From the NCBI RefSeq assembly GCF_003334785.1, contig NZ_QOWV01000012.1: a stretch of DNA of 64,000 bases. One strand, given 5' to 3'. This document shows positions 1,352 through 53,769 of the stretch, in pieces. The first letter of the stretch is position 1. Every line of letters starts with the position of its first letter. The translations under genes and the position numbers were made by a program. The notes under the pieces are model-generated. The model was not told the origin of the DNA. It made no database searches and was given only the letters and a program-made list of their open reading frames with translations. The DNA comes from Escherichia coli (GTDB lineage: Bacteria; Pseudomonadota; Gammaproteobacteria; Enterobacterales; Enterobacteriaceae).

Positions 1352-2713
1352 TTAATCTTTACGCGGGTCGTTGATCGGCTGACGAACCAGGAAGATGTAC
1401 GCCAGTGCTCCCGCTGCGGTGACGCAACCGCAGATGATTAGTGCCAGACGGAATGAGTGGGTGGTATCAACAATAAAACCAGTAATGATCGGCGCAAAAG
1501 AGGCGCAGATGAAGCTGGCAAAGTTCTGGATACTGCCCACCGACGCCGTCATGCGAGAAGCAACTGCGACGTGGATCAAGCCCCAGCAGGATGTTCCGGC
1601 AAAGTGAATACAGAACAGTGCCATGCCAATCAGCAGAACCGCCGTCATGGATGTTGTCGCTTGCGGTACGACCAGCGTAAAGGCGGCAGAACAGAACATC
1701 CCGGCAATAATGCAGATCTTACGGCTTTTAATCGGAGCCATTCCCCCTTTGACCAGCCAGTCAGTAACGTAACCGTTGACCAGCATCCCGGCAGCCCCAA
1801 ACAGGAAAGGGATAGCCGCCATCAACCCTGTGCTTTTTAAATCCAGGTTATAGGCTGTTTGCAGGTAACCAGGAAGCCAGGCCAGATACAGCCACGCAGT
1901 GTAGTTGATGCCACTGAATCCGAGCATCATTCCCCACATTGTGCGGTTACGGAACAGGCTGCGCCATTCGGCAAAACTGAGCGGATCTCGGCGGGCATTG
2001 ACGCTACCTGCATTGAGATAAGCTTGTTCAACGGCAGTCAGTTCTACGTGCTCGCGGTTGCGATAGAGCATATACCAGCCAATGGCGAGAAAAATCCCCA
2101 GCACACCAATGGTAATAAACATCCCACGCCAGCCCATCACCAGCATCATCGCCGCCAGAATCGGTGGGCTTACGGCAACGCCAATGGTAGAAGCTGCGTT
2201 GAAGAAGCCCATCGGGCGTCCGCGCTCTTTGATGTTGAACCAGTCGTTAATGACTTTTACGCCACATGGGTTCATCGGCGCTTCACCAATCCCCATACCG
2301 ATACGCACCAACACGAACTGCGTAAAGCTGTGCACCATGCCAGACATGGCCTGGAACAGTGACCAGAAGAACATCCCCAGTCCCAGCATCAGGCGTGGGC
2401 CTTTACGATCCAATAGTGGGCCGCAAGGAAGTTGCGCAATCCCGTAAGCGAGTGAAAACACGGAGAGCAAAGCGCCGATTTCGGTGGCACTTAATCCCAA
2501 TTCTTCACGAATCGTTAAATTTGCTACCGACAGCGAACTGCGGTCGAGATAATTGATTACCGCCGCAAAAAATAATAACAACATGGCGGTGGTTTGAATG
2601 CGTTTAATTCGGGTACTGCGTTGAACTAATCCATCTGGTGGCACGGGAATATCTGCCGACGAAGATGGAGTAAATGAAGAACGCGGATCGAGGGTGATAT
2701 TTTCTTTTTCCAC
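1352..2713 (-). CDS. lgoT: MFS transporter, L-galactonate:H+ symporter
   Basis: 453-aa ORF with multi-TM MFS character, position next to tsr and the lgoR/lgoD pair as in E. coli. Confidence 0.85.
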   Translation of the reverse strand: MEKENITLDPRSSFTPSSSADIPVPPDGLVQRSTRIKRIQTTAMLLLFFAAVINYLDRSSLSVANLTIREELGLSATEIGALLSVFSLAYGIAQLPCGPLLDRKGPRLMLGLGMFFWSLFQAMSGMVHSFTQFVLVRIGMGIGEAPMNPCGVKVINDWFNIKERGRPMGFFNAASTIGVAVSPPILAAMMLVMGWRGMFITIGVLGIFLAIGWYMLYRNREHVELTAVEQAYLNAGSVNARRDPLSFAEWRSLFRNRTMWGMMLGFSGINYTAWLYLAWLPGYLQTAYNLDLKSTGLMAAIPFLFGAAGMLVNGYVTDWLVKGGMAPIKSRKICIIAGMFCSAAFTLVVPQATTSMTAVLLIGMALFCIHFAGTSCWGLIHVAVASRMTASVGSIQNFASFICASFAPIITGFIVDTTHSFRLALIICGCVTAAGALAYIFLVRQPINDPRKD

Positions 2714-2927
2714 GCCGGACTCCTGTATTTATAATTTTAATTGTTTACGTAATTGTGCATTACGCAAGGTTGACATTAACGGCAGGTTAAAGTTTTAGGA
2801 CTTTACTACCGCTCACAAAAACATTTTTAGTCGACTGATTGTGAGCATAGGTAAGCGGGAATTTCCCGGTATTTATCTTTTGATAAAACCGTGCACCCGC
2901 TAATAGTTTGCTGTTTTTAATCCGTAC

Positions 2928-3842
2928 TTAATGAGCATAACGCGTGTTCTCATTAATGGATCGAATCATTGATTGTTTAGCTGAATTCAAATGGTTACGG
3001 AGCGCAAGGGTGGCATCAAGGTCACTGCGGCAAATCAGAGCGCTGAGAATGGTCATATGCTCATCGACGGCAATGATATTGCGCTGTTTAAGATCGCTTT
3101 CGTCCCATTGATAGTGAAAATGAAAGATGACTGAGATGATCTCAAGAGATTGATCAAAAAAGATATTGTCGGCAGCTGAAAGCAGTAAGGAGTGAAAATC
3201 TCTGTCAAGTTGCGAGAACATGCGAAAGCTATTGCCGATGTTGTCACGCAGTAGCCGATGACGTTCGAGCATGGTTTTCGCCTGCAGCCAGCGGGGATCA
3301 TGATCAGGCAGGTTGAGAAAGTGCTGAAGTGAATGTGTTTCGAGCATTTCGCGTAGTTCAAACAGCTGCTCGGCGTAGGATTGATCGAATTGCTTCATGC
3401 TCCACTGGCCGCGCTTTTCGCTTTGAATAAGATTATAACGGCCGAATTTTAAAAGATATTCTCTTACTACAACCGGGCTGACACCCGCGGCCCGAGCCAG
3501 TTGCAGTTCAGAAAAAGTTTCCCCAGGGCGTAACTGGCGCTGGTTTATCATCGTGAAAAAAGCCTGCTCAAACACTTTGTTTTGTTCACTCATTGAAGCG
3601 GTAGTACAGGCGAAACCGTCATCATGGTCAGGTTTACGCGCAATCACATAGTCGTTTCCAACCTGCGTTAAGACGCCGCATTCGCGTAAGTGGCTGAGAA
3701 TATGACGCACTGTAGTGCGGCTGATGTTGTACATTTCCGCCAGCGCACTTTGCGATGGAAGTGGGGAAGGGATATGACCCCGCGCCATATCATCAATGAC
3801 CTGGTTAATCACATTGTGGCGTAAATTTTGTGAACGACTCAT
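2928..3842 (-). CDS. lgoR: GntR/FadR-family transcriptional regulator of L-galactonate catabolism
   Basis: 304-aa ORF with N-terminal GntR-type HTH (YNISRTTVRHIL), conserved synteny. Confidence 0.85.
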   Translation of the reverse strand: MSRSQNLRHNVINQVIDDMARGHIPSPLPSQSALAEMYNISRTTVRHILSHLRECGVLTQVGNDYVIARKPDHDDGFACTTASMSEQNKVFEQAFFTMINQRQLRPGETFSELQLARAAGVSPVVVREYLLKFGRYNLIQSEKRGQWSMKQFDQSYAEQLFELREMLETHSLQHFLNLPDHDPRWLQAKTMLERHRLLRDNIGNSFRMFSQLDRDFHSLLLSAADNIFFDQSLEIISVIFHFHYQWDESDLKQRNIIAVDEHMTILSALICRSDLDATLALRNHLNSAKQSMIRSINENTRYAH

Positions 3843-3980: not shown

Positions 3981-5003
3981 ATGTCTACGATGAATGTTTT
4001 AATTTGCCAGCAGCCGAAAGAATTAGTCTGGAAACAACGCGAGATACCTATTCCGGGTGACAATGAAGCATTAATAAAAATTAAGTCTGTCGGGATTTGC
4101 GGTACCGATATTCATGCCTGGGGTGGAAATCAACCATTTTTTAGTTATCCACGTGTTTTAGGCCATGAAATATGTGGGGAGATTGTTGGGCTGGGTAAAA
4201 ATATTGCTGATCTTAAAAATGGTCAGCAAGTTGCTGTGATCCCTTATGTTGCCTGTCAGCAATGCCCGGCGTGTAAAAGCGGGCGTACCAATTGCTGTGA
4301 AAAAATTTCAGTCATTGGCGTGCATCAGGATGGCGGTTTTAGTGAGTATTTGAGCGTGCCGGTGGCGAACATTTTGCCCGCAGACGGTATTGACCCGCAG
4401 GCGGCCGCATTGATTGAACCTTTCGCTATTAGCGCTCATGCGGTGCGTCGCGCAGCCATTGCTCCCGGCGAGCAGGTGCTGGTGGTCGGGGCGGGGCCAA
4501 TCGGTCTGGGCGCGGCGGCAATCGCTAAAGCTGATGGCGCACAGGTGGTGGTGGCGGATACCAGTCCAGCGCGCCGTGAACATGTGGCAACGCGTCTGGA
4601 GTTGCCCGTGCTGGACCCGTCAGCCGAAGATTTTGACGCGCAGCTGCGGGCGCAGTTTGGTGGTTCGCTGGCGCAGAAAGTGATCGACGCGACAGGTAAT
4701 CAACATGCGATGAATAACACCGTGAATTTGATTCGTCACGGCGGCACGGTGGTATTTGTCGGCCTGTTTAAAGGTGAGTTGCAGTTCTCCGATCCGGAAT
4801 TCCATAAAAAAGAAACGACGATGATGGGTAGCCGCAACGCCACGCCGGAAGATTTTGCTAAAGTCGGTCGACTGATGGCGGAAGGAAAAATCACTGCTGA
4901 CATGATGTTAACCCATCGCTATCCGTTCGCCACGCTGGCAGAAACCTACGAGCGCGATGTGATTAACAATCGTGAGTTGATTAAGGGTGTAATTACTTTC
5001 TGA
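3981..5003 (+). CDS. lgoD: Zn-dependent medium-chain dehydrogenase, L-galactonate 5-dehydrogenase
   Basis: GHE..G zinc-ADH motif and GxGxxG NAD fold (VVGAGPIGLG); start chosen at MSTMNVL giving 340 aa. Confidence 0.85.
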   Translation: MSTMNVLICQQPKELVWKQREIPIPGDNEALIKIKSVGICGTDIHAWGGNQPFFSYPRVLGHEICGEIVGLGKNIADLKNGQQVAVIPYVACQQCPACKSGRTNCCEKISVIGVHQDGGFSEYLSVPVANILPADGIDPQAAALIEPFAISAHAVRRAAIAPGEQVLVVGAGPIGLGAAAIAKADGAQVVVADTSPARREHVATRLELPVLDPSAEDFDAQLRAQFGGSLAQKVIDATGNQHAMNNTVNLIRHGGTVVFVGLFKGELQFSDPEFHKKETTMMGSRNATPEDFAKVGRLMAEGKITADMMLTHRYPFATLAETYERDVINNRELIKGVITF

Positions 5004-28805: not shown

Positions 28806-29525
28806 ATGGCTACCCCACACATTAATGCAGAAATGGGCGATTTCGCTGACGTAGTTTTGATGCCAGGCGACCCGCTGCGTGCGAAGTATATTGCTGAAAC
28901 TTTCCTTGAAGATGCCCGTGAAGTGAACAACGTTCGCGGTATGCTGGGCTTCACCGGTACTTACAAAGGCCGCAAAATTTCCGTAATGGGTCACGGTATG
29001 GGTATCCCGTCCTGCTCCATCTACACCAAAGAACTGATCACCGATTTCGGCGTGAAGAAAATTATCCGCGTGGGTTCCTGTGGCGCAGTTCTGCCGCACG
29101 TAAAACTGCGCGACGTCGTTATCGGTATGGGTGCCTGCACCGATTCCAAAGTTAACCGTATCCGTTTTAAAGACCATGACTTTGCCGCTATCGCTGACTT
29201 TGACATGGTGCGTAACGCGGTAGACGCGGCTAAAGCACTGGGTGTTGATGCTCGCGTTGGTAACCTGTTCTCCGCTGACCTGTTCTACTCTCCGGACGGC
29301 GAAATGTTCGACGTGATGGAAAAATACGGCATCCTCGGCGTGGAAATGGAAGCGGCTGGTATCTACGGCGTCGCTGCAGAATTTGGCGCGAAAGCCCTGA
29401 CCATCTGCACCGTGTCTGACCACATCCGCACTCACGAGCAGACCACTGCCGCTGAGCGTCAGACCACCTTCAACGACATGATCAAAATCGCACTGGAATC
29501 CGTTCTGCTGGGCGATAAAGAGTAA
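28806..29525 (+). CDS. deoD: Purine nucleoside phosphorylase
   Basis: 239 aa starting [30 protein letters not shown]. Confidence 0.95.
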
Positions 29526-29559
29526 TTGTGTTTCGCTGAAAGGCGATTGTCGTGTTAAG

Positions 29560-29587
29560 CCGGAGTGGGAGACTGCTCCGGCTTTTA
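29560..29587 (+). terminator. Rho-independent terminator of the deo operon
   Basis: gccggagtgggagactgctccggc hairpin followed by tttt. Confidence 0.6.
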
Positions 29588-29684
29588 GTATCTATTCATC
29601 AATAGCAACTGATTTATAGATTTACTATTATTTTTCATATAGATAAAAAATAAAATACATTCAAGTATCTATTCACGAATCTAT

Positions 29685-29948
29685 TCATTTATGTTCAGCC
29701 GTCATCCAGGAAGGGCATATCAGCAACTCTGGTGGACAACCATAAATTTCTGCCATTTTGCTTTTGATGTTTGAGCTAAGCCGTTCCGTCTTTTCGATCT
29801 GTTTTAGAGAATTAATCGAGATACCTAACATTTTACTTACTTCAGCAAGCGATAATTTATGCCTGATACGCACGGCGGCTAGCCAGGAAATACGCTGGCT
29901 GAACATTAAATTGATAATCTCCCGTTCCTGGTTTTCCAGATCGATCAT
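29685..29948 (-). CDS. Small XRE/Cro-type helix-turn-helix DNA-binding protein (87 aa), not part of the K-12 map as I recall it
   Basis: ATG with GGAAGGA Shine-Dalgarno 6 bp upstream; HTH segment LSLAEVSKMLGISINSLKQIEK; sits in an AT-rich segment where K-12 carries yjjJ. Confidence 0.5.
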   Translation of the reverse strand: MIDLENQEREIINLMFSQRISWLAAVRIRHKLSLAEVSKMLGISINSLKQIEKTERLSSNIKSKMAEIYGCPPELLICPSWMTAEHK

Positions 29949-29979
29949 ATTTCCTTCCCTGGATATTTTAATCAGCGAG

Positions 29980-30996
29980 TTACCTTACCGCCCCCGCTAT
30001 CCACGTCGACAACTTCCGTAGCTCTTTTTCCTGGTCCGGGAAGTCAACCAACAGCGCTTCGCACTCTTGTTGCAGCATATCCGCGCGGTACAGGCAGCCT
30101 TGCAGTCGCCCGGCGAGGGCTTCCAGCGGCGCGGGGTTGAGGCTGTCGGTAAACACCTGGGCGCGGGTGATATGGCCTTTTTCAACGTCGAAATGCAGTT
30201 CCACGCCGCCCCAGCTAAAGCGTTCATCCAGCAGATGCGAGAATGCCGGAGCCTGACCGAAGTTCCATTCCCAGCTACTCTGACGGGCAAAGGTTTCGGC
30301 GAAGTTTGGCAAGTCTGGCGTTTTGTCCGGGGAGATGATTTCCGCTTCTACACGCTCGCCATAATGGGCGAAAAAGGCCTTGGTTATGGCCTCGCAAACC
30401 TGCTCATGGGTGATCCCCGGCAGCAGCTCGGTGAGGTTGGTCACGCGGGAACGCACTGAGGTAATGCCTTTCGCCGCCAGTTTCTTTTTATCCGGATTGA
30501 GATAGTTTGCCAGGCGGCTAAGGTCGGCATTGAGCAGCAAGGTGCCGTGGTGGAAGCCACGATCTTTGGTTTCGCGATAGGCCGATCCTGAGACTTTGCG
30601 GTCGCCTTCGGCGGTTTTCACCACCAGATCGTTACGCCCGGACGCTTCGGCGCTGACGCCAAGCGCGTTCAGCGCATTGAGCACAATCGACGTGGAGATG
30701 GTTTTATCGTACTCCGGCTTGCCAGCCATAAAGGTAAAGCAGGTATTGCCGAGATCGTGGAACACCGCGCCGCCACCGCTACTGCGCCGTGCCAGGCGGA
30801 CGTTATCTTCTTCCATCCGCCGGGTATTACACTCTTTCCACGGGTTCTGCGCGCGACCAATCACTACCGTGTCGGCATTGCGCCAGAGAAACAGAACGCG
30901 CTGCGTGGCGGGCATCTGGCGAAAAATACACTCCTCCACCGCCAGGTTAAACCACGGGTCGTAAGAGTCAGAGATGAGCAGGCGTAATGTGGACAT
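29980..30996 (-). CDS. lplA: Lipoate-protein ligase A
   Basis: 338 aa starting [22 protein letters not shown]. Confidence 0.95.
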
Positions 30997-52269: not shown

Positions 52270-53556
52270 ATGAAACTCTACAATCTGAAAGATCACAACG
52301 AGCAGGTCAGCTTTGCGCAAGCCGTAACCCAGGGGTTGGGCAAAAATCAGGGGCTGTTTTTTCCGCATGACCTGCCGGAATTCAGCCTGACTGAAATTGA
52401 TGAGATGCTGAAGCTGGATTTTGTCACCCGCAGTGCGAAGATCCTCTCGGCGTTTATTGGTGATGAAATCCCGCAGGAAATCCTGGAAGAGCGCGTGCGC
52501 GCGGCGTTTGCCTTCCCGGCTCCGGTCGCCAATGTTGAAAGCGATGTCGGTTGTCTGGAATTGTTCCACGGGCCAACGCTGGCATTTAAAGATTTCGGCG
52601 GTCGCTTTATGGCACAAATGCTGACCCATATTGCGGGTGATAAGCCAGTGACCATTCTGACCGCGACCTCCGGTGATACCGGAGCGGCAGTGGCTCATGC
52701 TTTCTACGGTTTGCCGAATGTGAAAGTGGTTATCCTCTATCCACGAGGCAAAATCAGTCCACTGCAAGAAAAACTGTTCTGTACATTGGGCGGCAATATC
52801 GAAACTGTTGCCATCGACGGCGATTTCGATGCCTGTCAGGCGCTGGTGAAGCAGGCGTTTGATGATGAAGAACTGAAAGTGGCGCTGGGGTTAAACTCAG
52901 CTAACTCGATTAACATCAGCCGTTTGCTGGCGCAGATTTGCTACTACTTTGAAGCTGTTGCGCAGCTGCCGCAGGAGGCGCGCAACCAGCTGGTTGTTTC
53001 GGTACCAAGCGGAAACTTCGGCGATTTGACGGCGGGTCTGCTGGCGAAGTCACTCGGTCTGCCGGTGAAACGTTTTATTGCTGCGACCAACGTGAACGAT
53101 ACCGTGCCACGTTTCCTGCACGACGGTCAGTGGTCCCCCAAAGCGACTCAGGCGACGTTATCCAACGCGATGGACGTGAGTCAGCCGAACAACTGGCCGC
53201 GTGTGGAAGAGTTGTTCCGCCGCAAAATCTGGCAACTGAAAGAGCTGGGTTATGCAGCCGTGGATGATGAAACCACGCAACAGACAATGCGTGAGTTAAA
53301 AGAACTGGGCTACACCTCGGAGCCGCACGCTGCCGTAGCGTATCGTGCGCTGCGTGACCAGTTGAATCCAGGCGAATATGGCTTGTTCCTCGGCACCGCG
53401 CATCCGGCGAAATTTAAAGAGAGCGTGGAAGCGATTCTCGGTGAAACGTTGGATCTGCCAAAAGAGCTGGCAGAACGTGCTGATTTACCCTTGCTTTCAC
53501 ATAATCTGCCCGCCGATTTTGCTGCGTTGCGTAAATTGATGATGAATCATCAGTAA
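52270..53556 (+). CDS. thrC: Threonine synthase
   Basis: 428 aa starting MKLYNLKDHNEQVSFAQAVTQG. Confidence 0.97.
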   Translation: MKLYNLKDHNEQVSFAQAVTQGLGKNQGLFFPHDLPEFSLTEIDEMLKLDFVTRSAKILSAFIGDEIPQEILEERVRAAFAFPAPVANVESDVGCLELFHGPTLAFKDFGGRFMAQMLTHIAGDKPVTILTATSGDTGAAVAHAFYGLPNVKVVILYPRGKISPLQEKLFCTLGGNIETVAIDGDFDACQALVKQAFDDEELKVALGLNSANSINISRLLAQICYYFEAVAQLPQEARNQLVVSVPSGNFGDLTAGLLAKSLGLPVKRFIAATNVNDTVPRFLHDGQWSPKATQATLSNAMDVSQPNNWPRVEELFRRKIWQLKELGYAAVDDETTQQTMRELKELGYTSEPHAAVAYRALRDQLNPGEYGLFLGTAHPAKFKESVEAILGETLDLPKELAERADLPLLSHNLPADFAALRKLMMNHQ

Positions 53557-53769
53557 CATCTATTCATTATCTCAATCAGGCCGGGTTTGCTTTTATGCAG
53601 CCCGGCTTTTTTGTGAAGAAAATATGGAGAGAAACGACAGGGAAAAAGGAGAAATTCTCAATAAATGCGGTAACTTAGAGATTAGGATTGCGGAGAATAA
53701 CAACCGCCGTTCTCATCGCGTAATCTCCGGATATCGACCCATAACGGGCAATGATAAAAGGAGTAACCT

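What the first reader, a model, noticed from the sequence alone, without database searches (positions are those of the whole stretch)
29526..29979. yjjJ (hipA-like kinase) locus replaced by an AT-rich islet with a lone XRE-type HTH gene
In the K-12 map as I recall it, deoD and lplA are separated by yjjJ, a roughly 1.3-kb HipA-family kinase gene. Here the two are only 454 bp apart and the interval is strongly AT-rich, unlike the flanking core DNA. It holds a single 87-aa minus-strand ORF (29685..29948) with a good Shine-Dalgarno and a Cro/C1-type HTH, co-oriented with and 31 bp downstream of lplA. The motif tatctattca recurs three times (29589, 29666, 29677) near the ORF 3' end. The locus may be a strain-variable toxin-antitoxin hotspot, with the small HTH protein an orphan antitoxin-like regulator or a remnant of a different module.
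Basis: partly seen in the sequence, partly recalled or inferred. Interest (0 to 1): 0.5.

Follow-up and report, generated by a model that had tools for sequence, protein, structure and literature searches.

The report
Orphan antitoxin-type gene replacing hipH
Between deoD and lplA this strain carries the common E. coli alternative to the K-12 toxin-kinase gene yjjJ/hipH: a small, weakly constrained DNA-binding gene descended from a toxin-antitoxin module, sitting next to the leftover control region of the lost kinase gene.

Summary
deoD and lplA are 454 bp apart. The interval is 38% G+C, against 52% for the window. It holds an 87-aa XRE-type HTH ORF on the minus strand and three exact ATCTATTCA copies.

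It is not strain-specific. The cassette is in 4,074 of 5,426 complete E. coli genomes and yjjJ/hipH is in 1,348, which together make 5,422. K-12 is therefore the minority state.

The ORF (here HTH87) is not a yjjJ fragment. Its nearest relatives are 118-124-aa HTH proteins encoded directly after RelE/ParE toxin genes on plasmids and phages. HTH87 matches only their C-terminal DNA-binding half, and no toxin gene is present. Constraint is weak (omega about 0.2-0.3), and 1,686 E. coli genomes carry a Q50* nonsense allele.

The repeated motif is a "HipH box". The same 9-mer array (one distal box plus a 12-bp tandem array) lies just upstream of hipH in Enterobacteriaceae, Serratia and Pantoea. It also precedes hipH homologues of 34-48% identity in metagenomes.

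The islet is therefore an orphaned hipH promoter/operator plus a solo antitoxin-derived HTH gene. Other genera show the same dimorphism. Interest is moderate, and the HipH box is the most useful by-product.

The parts
28806..29525 (+). deoD (purine-nucleoside phosphorylase), left border of the islet
   Evidence: ORF; annotated as deoD in the identical ATCC 8739 record.
29557..29584 (+). deoD terminator hairpin (AAGCCGGAG / CTCCGGCTT, then TTTTAG). It is shared by both E. coli alleles.
   Evidence: Inverted repeat I5. The segment is conserved between the window and K-12. The simple terminator scan did not call it because the T run is short.
29590..29598 (+). Distal HipH box (ATCTATTCA), box R1
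   Evidence: Exact copy. The same box follows the deoD terminator upstream of hipH in K-12, E. albertii, Citrobacter, Pseudocitrobacter, Leclercia, Silvania and Salmonella. A distal box lies 65-130 nt upstream of distant hipH homologues.
29599..29654 (+). AT-rich spacer corresponding to the hipH core-promoter region. The TTTTCA block is kept, but the -35-like TTTACA/TATACA of hipH alleles is changed to TATTAT here.
   Evidence: Alignment of 13 left arms. An RpoD holoenzyme site (TTTTCA-18-TCTATT) and H-NS binding are reported for the K-12 deoD-yjjJ spacer (PMC3946193). The consensus scan finds no strong promoter here.
29655..29687 (+). Proximal tandem HipH boxes with a 12-bp period: R2 degenerate (ATACATTCA, 29655-29663), R3 (29667-29675) and R4 (29679-29687). 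R4 contains the stop codon of the HTH ORF.
   Evidence: family D1. The array is identical to the one that ends 3 nt before the yjjJ ATG in K-12. Most other E. coli HTH alleles have ATCCATTCA or a perfect box at R2, and some have lost one 12-bp unit.
29685..29948 (-). HTH87: an 87-aa XRE/Cro-C1-type helix-turn-helix protein (RefSeq WP_000566150.1). It is a solo homologue of the C-terminal DNA-binding domain of RelE/ParE-associated antitoxins.
   Evidence: Pfam HTH_3 E=1.2e-6. phrog_7241 E=3.4e-10, matching profile positions 54-121 of 122. AF2 model with pLDDT 87 and an XRE fold. Alignment A1. Orthologues lie at the same site in Superficieibacter, Enterobacteriaceae UBA3516 and an unnamed relative. 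Omega is 0.15-0.31.
29949..29979 (-). 31-bp lplA-HTH87 spacer with the SD-like GGGAAGGAA and no terminator. HTH87 is probably transcribed by read-through from lplA (inferred).
   Evidence: Sequence; no terminator-like site.
29980..30996 (-). lplA (lipoate-protein ligase), right border. Homology with K-12 resumes at its stop codon. Its last 100 nt are only 91% identical to K-12, against 95-99% further in.

Best explanation
The interval is the common E. coli haplotype of a dimorphic deoD-lplA islet. It has two parts of different origin.

(a) Positions 29587-29690 are the orphaned control region of the toxin-kinase gene hipH (yjjJ). It consists of one distal and three tandem ATCTATTCA boxes around a now weakened sigma-70-type promoter. 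In hipH-bearing genomes this array ends 0-18 nt before the hipH start codon. It is most likely the operator bound by HipH's own N-terminal winged HTH for autorepression; that binding is inferred, not shown.

(b) Positions 29685-29979 are a cassette that replaced the hipH coding sequence in an ancestor. It carries HTH87, a stand-alone XRE DNA-binding domain descended from the HTH antitoxin of a RelE/ParE-type module. The toxin gene and the N-terminal half of the antitoxin are missing.

HTH87 is probably made from lplA read-through transcripts. It probably acts, at most, as a small dimeric DNA-binding repressor with a dispensable role. It is under weak purifying selection and is being lost repeatedly.

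Shown here:
- the allele frequencies and breakpoints;
- the lack of homology to yjjJ;
- the homology to the antitoxin HTH domain;
- the absence of a toxin gene;
- the erosion of the gene;
- the linkage of the boxes to hipH across taxa.

Inferred: the direction of the replacement, co-transcription with lplA, what the boxes bind, and any residual function of HTH87.
For: Allele counts:
- The cassette-only query hits 4,074 of 5,426 genomes and yjjJ hits 1,348, together 5,422.
- The window is 100% identical to ATCC 8739.

Breakpoints lie at the yjjJ ATG and the lplA stop codon. BLASTP and tBLASTN find no similarity between HTH87 and YjjJ. hhalign finds only a generic 22-column HTH match at 30% probability.

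Antitoxin ancestry:
- HTH87 relatives on Leclercia and Serratia plasmids and in Pasteurella and enterobacterial phages are 118-124 aa. Each lies directly after an 86-93-aa RelE/ParE toxin gene.
- The toxins match phrog_1213 (E about 1e-18 to 1e-20) and Pfam ParE_toxin (E=7e-10).
- The antitoxins match phrog_7241 over their full length, whereas HTH87 matches only positions 54-121.
- tBLASTN finds no toxin remnant in the window.

HTH87 is a real gene:
- Orthologues of 86-87 aa lie at the same position and orientation in three other lineages, with the stop codon inside the last box.
- Cross-genus dN/dS is 0.15-0.31.
- Within E. coli there are 17 synonymous and 19 non-synonymous unique substitutions, giving omega about 0.29.

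Erosion:
- The Q50* allele is an exact match in 1,686 genomes.
- Other alleles carry a frameshift, an IS1 insertion, an in-frame deletion or an insertion.

The boxes belong to hipH:
- The same array precedes hipH in six genera at this site.
- It also precedes hipH in Salmonella and Serratia, in Pantoea at a different locus, and in a GC-rich metagenome contig.
- It precedes 17 metagenomic hipH homologues, 16 of them 34-48% identical and from contigs of 43-67% G+C.
- The HipH recognition helix SQ(A/P)T(F/L/V)SR is conserved throughout, and the wing GKARATRY is invariant in Enterobacteriaceae.

Literature:
- hipH is regulated at its promoter by c-di-GMP, and its HTH is needed for toxicity (PMC11452175).
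- Reg-Seq found two repressor sites in the yjjJ promoter (PMC7567609).
Against: - The boxes are about as well kept in the HTH alleles of E. coli, Superficieibacter and UBA3516 as in hipH alleles, although HTH87 has diverged to about 50% identity. A pure relic should have decayed more. Some erosion is visible: R2 mismatches, 12-bp unit losses in L012 and L101, and loss of every exact box in L006, which keeps only a degenerate last box.
- ChIP-exo found no DNA binding by tagged YjjJ (PMC8464067), so autoregulation through the boxes is unproven.
- Reg-Seq attributed one yjjJ repressor site to MarA.
- Omega of about 0.2-0.3 and conservation of length across genera show that HTH87 is not simply junk, so it may have a specific function that I could not identify.
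- No expression data were available.
Confidence: 0.72

Rival explanations
1. HTH87 and the HipH boxes form a working unit. HTH87 binds the boxes and silences the retained promoter, which would otherwise fire antisense into HTH87 and lplA. Alternatively it acts as immunity against re-acquired hipH, so that the two alleles are kept as a long-term balanced polymorphism.
For: The boxes and HTH87 co-occur with an identical junction in three genera, and the boxes are well conserved there. The alleles are mutually exclusive. Divergence is raised next to the cargo. yjjJ-lplA is a documented convergent excludon in E. coli (PMC12288877). HipB, another XRE protein of 88 aa, rescues YjjJ toxicity (PMC9948734).
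Against: - The HTH87 recognition-helix positions vary between genera (ISINSLKQ, ITPDALKR, ITAEALKR) while the boxes stay constant.
- L006 keeps an intact HTH87 homologue but has lost every exact box, with only a degenerate last box left.
- 1,686 E. coli genomes keep the boxes with a truncated HTH87.
- XRE dimers normally bind palindromes. The relatives' operators are CTTATA/TATAAG-type palindromes, not this direct repeat.
- The boxes lie downstream of the gene, not in its promoter.
Confidence: 0.12
2. HTH87 is still a trans-acting antitoxin or repressor for a RelE/ParE-type module carried elsewhere, for example on prophages or plasmids (an anti-addiction role).
For: HTH87 is homologous to the DNA-binding domain of phrog_7241-type antitoxins, which occur in enterobacterial phages and plasmids. 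Purifying selection is moderate.
Against: It lacks the N-terminal half that these antitoxins have in addition to the HTH domain, so toxin neutralisation is unlikely. The nonsense allele is common. The recognition helix has lost the conserved Q of the relatives. No such module was found in the 64-kb window.
Confidence: 0.1
3. The HTH allele is ancestral and hipH was inserted later, in K-12-like lineages.
For: The HTH allele is the majority in E. coli. HTH87 orthologues exist in other genera with synonymous divergence similar to that of the flanking genes.
Against: The box array travels with hipH to unrelated loci and into distant taxa. Its presence beside HTH87 is therefore a footprint of an earlier hipH. 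hipH also follows deoD in Salmonella and in Serratia, which is outside the Enterobacteriaceae. 50 of 73 species have only a 50-112-bp gap with neither gene.
Confidence: 0.05
4. The interval is a simple internal deletion of yjjJ, or the 87-aa ORF is a chance ORF.
For: Deletion remnants of hipH do exist elsewhere: E. coli WB61, Phytobacter L033 and Kosakonia L050.
Against: There is no DNA or protein similarity between 29694-29979 and yjjJ. The ORF has an HTH_3 match, a confident XRE-fold model, orthologues in other genera and omega below 1.
Confidence: 0.01

Closest known systems
HTH antitoxins of toxin-first RelE/ParE (HigBA-like) modules: the PHROG family phrog_7241, partnered with phrog_1213 / Pfam ParE_toxin
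   Same: HTH87 has a homologous XRE HTH domain. It is 32-38% identical over about 70 residues, with shared motifs such as VS(L/W)LAAxR and (L/M)AE(I/V)YxC. HTH87 hits phrog_7241 at E=3.4e-10.
   Different: HTH87 lacks the N-terminal 50 or so residues and has no adjacent toxin gene. It carries a 10-residue C-terminal tail (CPSWMTAEHK) and has lost the conserved Q at the start of the recognition helix. It is chromosomal and fixed at one site downstream of lplA.
hipH / yjjJ locus of E. coli K-12 (a monocistronic HipA-family kinase toxin with an N-terminal HTH)
   Same: The chromosomal site is the same. The upstream region is the same, including all ATCTATTCA boxes and the deoD terminator. The alleles are mutually exclusive.
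   Different: There is no kinase gene. The coding sequence is replaced by an unrelated cassette on the opposite strand, and the -35-like element of the promoter is degraded.
HipB, the XRE-type antitoxin of HipA (88 aa)
   Same: It has similar size and the XRE fold, and it belongs to the same functional class of TA-associated HTH repressors. HipB is reported to rescue YjjJ toxicity (PMC9948734).
   Different: There is no specific sequence relationship. HipB is not among the 19 PDB sequences hit by the family profile at E<=0.01, and HTH87 does not hit the NCBIfam HipB model. HTH87 is not paired with a kinase gene.
Orphan (solo) antitoxin genes and decayed chromosomal TA loci (a general concept, cited from my own knowledge)
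   Same: HTH87 is a lone antitoxin-derived gene. It shows weak constraint, recurrent pseudogenisation, AT-rich DNA and a variable chromosomal site.
   Different: It sits on the footprint of a different toxin gene (hipH) whose operator array is retained. It is also conserved at an identical junction in several genera.

Membership tests
XRE / Cro-C1 helix-turn-helix proteins (Pfam HTH_3) | Sequence match to the HTH_3 profile over the whole domain | tested here: met
   HTH_3 E=1.2e-6, residues 23-76 against model positions 1-55 of 55. HTH_19, HTH_31 and HTH_25 also match.
XRE / Cro-C1 helix-turn-helix proteins (Pfam HTH_3) | Five-helix lambda-repressor-like fold | tested here: met
   The AF2 model has pLDDT 87.2 and helices at 22-29, 34-41, 45-54, 59-69 and 73-76, plus an extra N-terminal helix. 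The best Foldseek matches are CylR2, SinR, C.BclI and P22 c2, with TM-scores (normalised to the target) of 0.6-0.78 and rmsd 1.4-2 A.
Type II toxin-antitoxin antitoxin (HigA-like, phrog_7241 type) | Homology to the antitoxin family | tested here: met
   phrog_7241 E=3.4e-10. Alignment A1 shows 27-41% identity to family members.
Type II toxin-antitoxin antitoxin (HigA-like, phrog_7241 type) | Adjacent cognate toxin gene in the same operon | tested here: not met
   lplA lies 31 bp upstream and the deoD terminator lies downstream. tBLASTN with four RelE/ParE toxins finds nothing in the islet or in the whole window.
Type II toxin-antitoxin antitoxin (HigA-like, phrog_7241 type) | Full-length architecture, including the N-terminal domain presumed to neutralise the toxin | tested here: not met
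   HTH87 aligns only to profile positions 54-121 of 122. The first 50 or so residues of the relatives have no counterpart.
Type II toxin-antitoxin antitoxin (HigA-like, phrog_7241 type) | Autoregulation through palindromic operators in its own promoter | tested here: inconclusive
   The relatives have CTTATA/TATAAG palindromes upstream of the toxin gene. No comparable palindrome or own promoter is seen upstream of HTH87. Binding cannot be tested in silico.
hipH / HipA-family kinase locus | HipA_C kinase domain gene | tested here: not met
   K-12 YjjJ has HipA_C at E=1.1e-20. tBLASTN with YjjJ finds nothing in 29500-30000.
hipH / HipA-family kinase locus | Upstream ATCTATTCA box array. This feature is defined here, not in the literature. 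| tested here: met
   Boxes at 29590, 29655 (degenerate), 29667 and 29679 have the same layout as upstream of hipH in more than 25 loci.
HipB antitoxins | Specific sequence similarity to HipB | tested here: not met
   HTH87 has no HipB hit in NCBIfam at E<=1. HipB structures are absent from the PDB profile hits at E<=0.01.

The most novel reading that the evidence does not exclude
The deoD-lplA site holds an old polymorphism shared by several genera, between a toxin-kinase allele (hipH) and an anti-hipH allele. In the second allele a domesticated antitoxin HTH domain (HTH87) has taken over HipH's own operator boxes. It would bind them to silence the retained promoter, or to protect the cell against incoming hipH. 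The box conservation in HTH alleles would then be functional, and the two alleles would be kept by balancing selection.

A weaker and more likely version concerns only the boxes. The ATCTATTCA array would be the first defined operator of the HipH family, and the point at which c-di-GMP control of hipH acts.
Probability: 0.12. Interest if true: 0.65.

Novelty: new member of a known kind. Interest (0 to 1): 0.36.

Why it matters
1. HipH (YjjJ) has been studied in K-12 and a UPEC isolate as a persistence and genome-stability toxin controlled by c-di-GMP. Three quarters of complete E. coli genomes lack the gene, including O157:H7 and ATCC 8739. They carry this cassette in its place, so that pathway is not a general property of the species.

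2. It accompanies hipH from Enterobacteriaceae to GC-rich bacteria whose HipH is only about 35% identical. This gives a concrete, testable operator for a toxin whose regulation the literature calls unknown (PMC8262856).

3. The locus is a clean natural example of one toxin gene being replaced by the remnant of another TA module. The remnant then decays slowly.

Tried and rejected
- **yjjJ-fragment or internal-deletion idea.** BLASTN with word size 7, BLASTP and tBLASTN found nothing. hhalign of the HTH87 family against the HipH N-terminus gave only a generic 22-column HTH match at 30% probability.
- **Known RNA element.** Rfam has no match at E<=1 in 29300-30200. The strong fold of the HTH87 3' region (z = -5.9) is mostly the deoD terminator plus AT hairpins.
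- **Consensus promoter and terminator scan.** It found nothing useful.
- **A plus-strand 27-aa ORF starting at the retained ATG (29691).** Its length and start are not conserved in the other genera, and it reads like an antisense artefact. Rejected.
- **Apparent extension of antitoxin homology into the lplA-HTH87 spacer (ISREGN against VSREDDNE).** It rests on three residues only and is absent in the other genera. Not used.
- **Operators of the relatives compared with the HipH box.** They are different, being palindromic CTTATA/TATAAG sites.
- **PDB searches by sequence profile and by Foldseek.** Only generic XRE proteins came up; HipB did not appear in the sequence-profile hits or in the 50 best Foldseek matches shown, and no HigA structure appeared in either.
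- **NCBIfam.** There are no above-cut-off models for HTH87 or for the related toxin and antitoxin.
- **Protein search with the HipH N-terminal profile.** It returned only truncated HipH fragments and no paralogous box-binding candidate.
- **Literature.** Searches for O157 and ATCC 8739 locus tags and for the RefSeq accession found nothing relevant. A full-text search for the motif returned only primers.
- **Resemblance of the box to the TorR tor box (CTGTTCATAT), ARG-box half-sites or marboxes.** This is recalled from memory and was not tested. The strict linkage of the boxes to hipH makes a general host-regulon explanation less likely.

Full report
**Observation**

The coordinates are right. 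deoD ends at 29525. lplA (minus strand) has its stop codon at 29980-29982. The 454-bp interval holds one credible ORF, 29685..29948 on the minus strand (87 aa). It lies 31 bp after lplA, behind a purine-rich SD-like stretch.

G+C is 38.3% for the interval and 32.7% for its left part, against 52.0% for the window.

The 9-mer ATCTATTCA is exact at 29590, 29667 and 29679. The window holds four copies where 0.32 are expected, and none of 100 shuffles reaches four. A degenerate fourth copy (ATACATTCA, 29655) sits in 12-bp register with the last two. The ORF's stop codon is the TCA of the last copy.

**How common it is**

The window is 100% identical to E. coli ATCC 8739. The cassette-only query (29694-29979) is found in 4,074 of 5,426 complete E. 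coli genomes. K-12 yjjJ is found in 1,348, always once and on the chromosome. The sum is 5,422, so these are alternative alleles of one site and K-12 carries the minority one.

RefSeq already annotates the ORF as a helix-turn-helix domain-containing protein (WP_000566150.1). I found no paper that mentions it.

**Breakpoints**

Against K-12, homology runs from deoD through the terminator and the whole yjjJ upstream region. It stops within a few bases of the yjjJ ATG (window about 29693). It resumes exactly at the lplA stop codon (29980).

The 1,332-bp yjjJ coding sequence is thus swapped for 286 unrelated bases. There is no DNA similarity on either strand, and HTH87 has no protein similarity to YjjJ. 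The internal-deletion alternative is refuted for this allele. A real yjjJ deletion remnant does exist in strain WB61.

**What HTH87 is**

HTH87 matches Pfam HTH_3 (E=1.2e-6). It gives a confident AlphaFold model (pLDDT 87) with the five-helix XRE fold plus an N-terminal helix. The best structural matches are CylR2, SinR, C-proteins and P22 c2.

The family is very small. An exhaustive HMMER search of 1.84 billion representative proteins found only Escherichia proteins, one 87-aa homologue at 44% identity, and a few longer proteins.

The longer relatives are informative. On Leclercia and Serratia plasmids, in Pasteurella phage Pmp14 and in an enterobacterial phage, 118-124-aa HTH proteins are 32-38% identical to HTH87. 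Each is encoded directly downstream of an 86-93-aa RelE/ParE toxin gene. The phage toxins match phrog_1213 (E about 1e-18 to 1e-20), one of them also matches Pfam ParE_toxin (E=7e-10), and the plasmid toxins are annotated RelE/ParE in their records.

These antitoxins match phrog_7241 end to end. HTH87 matches only profile positions 54-121. The window has no toxin remnant.

HTH87 is therefore a solo copy of the DNA-binding half of a HigA-like antitoxin.

**Selection on HTH87**

Orthologues of 86-87 aa occupy the same position and orientation in three other lineages:
- Superficieibacter (L026);
- an Enterobacteriaceae MAG, UBA3516 (L031);
- an unnamed relative whose LplA is 89% identical (L006).

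Cross-genus dN/dS is 0.15-0.31, against 0.03-0.07 for lplA and deoD. Within E. coli, 17 synonymous and 19 non-synonymous unique substitutions give omega of about 0.29.

Erosion is obvious:
- A 61-mer carrying a Q50* nonsense codon is matched exactly in 1,686 genomes, 41% of HTH alleles.
- Other alleles have a frameshift (L101), an IS1 insertion (H12), an in-frame deletion (L005) or an insertion (L004).

The window's copy is intact.

**What the repeated motif is**

The boxes are the upstream array of hipH.

At this site, six genera carry hipH orthologues of 60-95% identity (E. albertii, Citrobacter, Kosakonia, Pseudocitrobacter, Leclercia, Silvania). In all of them the otherwise unalignable deoD-hipH spacer keeps the same layout. 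One box follows the deoD terminator, a promoter-like stretch comes next, and three tandem boxes follow at a 12-bp period. The last box ends 3 nt before the ATG.

The same array precedes hipH in other settings:
- Salmonella Gallinarum;
- Serratia;
- Pantoea, at a different locus;
- a GC-rich metagenome contig.

A metagenome scan for two boxes spaced by 3 nt returned 80 loci. In 17 of them the array lies 0-98 nt (mostly 0-18 nt) upstream of a HipH-type ORF, in the right orientation. One of these (L139) is an E. coli-like yjjJ at 95% identity. The others are 34-48% identical to YjjJ where tBLASTN detected them, and one further ORF, cut short by the contig end, was recognised by its N-terminal winged-HTH motif. 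They come from contigs of 43-67% G+C. Three more loci were E. coli HTH alleles, and the rest look like chance or satellite matches.

The only DNA-binding domain that travels with the boxes is HipH's own N-terminal winged HTH. Its recognition helix SQ(A/P)T(F/L/V)SR is conserved throughout, and its wing GKARATRY is invariant in Enterobacteriaceae.

I therefore infer that the boxes are the HipH operator. This fits three published results:
- Reg-Seq found two repressor sites in the yjjJ promoter (PMC7567609).
- c-di-GMP acts on hipH at its promoter and also binds HipH (PMC11452175).
- An RpoD site and H-NS binding were mapped in this spacer (PMC3946193).

It does not fit the negative ChIP-exo result for YjjJ (PMC8464067).

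**History**

Because the boxes follow hipH wherever it goes, their presence beside HTH87 marks a former hipH. The HTH allele is thus the derived state. It is old, because E. coli, Superficieibacter and UBA3516 share the same junction (stop codon inside the last box). The HTH-type spacers also share a degraded -35-like element (TTTACA or TATACA changed to TATTAT, TTTATT or CATATT).

Across the 73 species in which both flanking genes were found:

| State of the deoD-lplA gap | Species |
|---|---|
| 50-112 bp, mostly REP-type palindromes | 50 |
| Full-length hipH | 6 |
| hipH remnants | 2 |
| HTH87 | 3 |
| Unrelated cargo | 7 |
| Short REP-rich or other fillers | 5 |

The site is a real turnover hotspot. 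E. whittamii's "empty" site still holds a piece of the distal box, so it is a secondary deletion.

**Open point**

The boxes in HTH alleles are better preserved than a neutral relic should be after HTH87 diverged to about 50% identity. Either something still binds them, or the arms are refreshed by recombination with hipH alleles.

Four observations argue against HTH87 as the binder:
- Its recognition-helix residues vary while the boxes do not.
- L006 keeps the protein but has lost every exact box, with only a degenerate last box left.
- The Q50* alleles keep perfect boxes.
- The related antitoxins use palindromic operators of a different sequence.

I rate the functional-unit reading at about 0.12.

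**Verdict**

The feature is the ordinary majority allele of E. coli and a decaying TA remnant, not a new kind of system. The most useful result is the HipH box array, which turns the open question of hipH regulation into a direct experiment.

Noticed in passing
L096-L099, L110-L185 (17 metagenome loci), L013/L017/L025/L032/L055/L074; window 29590-29687: ATCTATTCA boxes (one distal box plus 2-5 tandem boxes at a 12-bp period) lie immediately upstream of hipH-family genes, from Enterobacteriaceae to GC-rich bacteria with only 34-48% HipH identity. The start codon follows the last box by 0-18 nt in most cases, which suggests a very short leader or none. I did not find this described in the papers searched.
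   Followed up: yes
L104:673-733 (E. coli FORC_042), equivalent to window 29799-29801: A Q50* nonsense allele of the HTH gene, together with L57F, is matched exactly by 1,686 of 5,426 complete E. coli genomes. RefSeq flags it as 'internal stop'.
   Followed up: yes
L011 (Escherichia whittamii), deoD-lplA gap of 83 bp: The 'empty' site retains TTTTTAATTCATCAAT, a fragment of the distal box with its HTH-allele-type flank. The emptiness is therefore a secondary deletion of an occupied site.
   Followed up: partly
L095 (E. coli WB61) 2501-2692: A rare third E. coli state: an internal deletion of yjjJ leaves only its first 140-190 nt. The remnant is annotated as a partial 'transcriptional regulator' and overlaps the lplA 3' end.
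   Followed up: partly
L003 (E. coli PK8241) 4332-4790: An IS200C element is inserted between the deoD terminator and the proximal HipH boxes of a yjjJ allele. It separates the distal box from the promoter.
   Followed up: no
L036, L037, L066, L041, L088, L062, L078, L070, L076: Other cargo at the same deoD-lplA site in other genera:
- a fimbrial-like secreted protein (Enterobacter cloacae);
- REP-associated tyrosine transposase-like ORFs with REP arrays (Pseudocitrobacter, Kluyvera georgiana);
- a small lipoprotein;
- a 209-aa membrane protein;
- a 406-aa secreted protein;
- long REP or BIME-type arrays.
   Followed up: partly
L098 (Salmonella Gallinarum) 2501-3822; L096 (Serratia nematodiphila) 2501-3721: hipH follows deoD in Salmonella enterica subsp. 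enterica and in Serratia, but it is split into two or three ORFs (pseudogenised). In Serratia lplA is absent from the site. Salmonella subsp. arizonae and diarizonae have an empty gap (L063, L045).
   Followed up: partly
window 29980-30079: The last 100 nt of lplA are only 91% identical between the window and K-12, against 95-99% further into the gene. lplA as a whole is unusually polymorphic among E. coli, at 89-98% per 100 nt against strain PK8241.
   Followed up: partly
window 53558-53566: A fourth exact ATCTATTCA lies right after the stop codon of a 428-aa ORF (52270..53556; probably thrC, judged from its C-terminal sequence from memory) and before a terminator hairpin. It is a single copy with a degenerate neighbour and is probably chance.
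   Followed up: partly
NZ_AP021894.1 (hit H12): An IS1 insertion splits the HTH gene into two 'XRE family transcriptional regulator' fragments in E. coli strain 2018-10-1CC.
   Followed up: no
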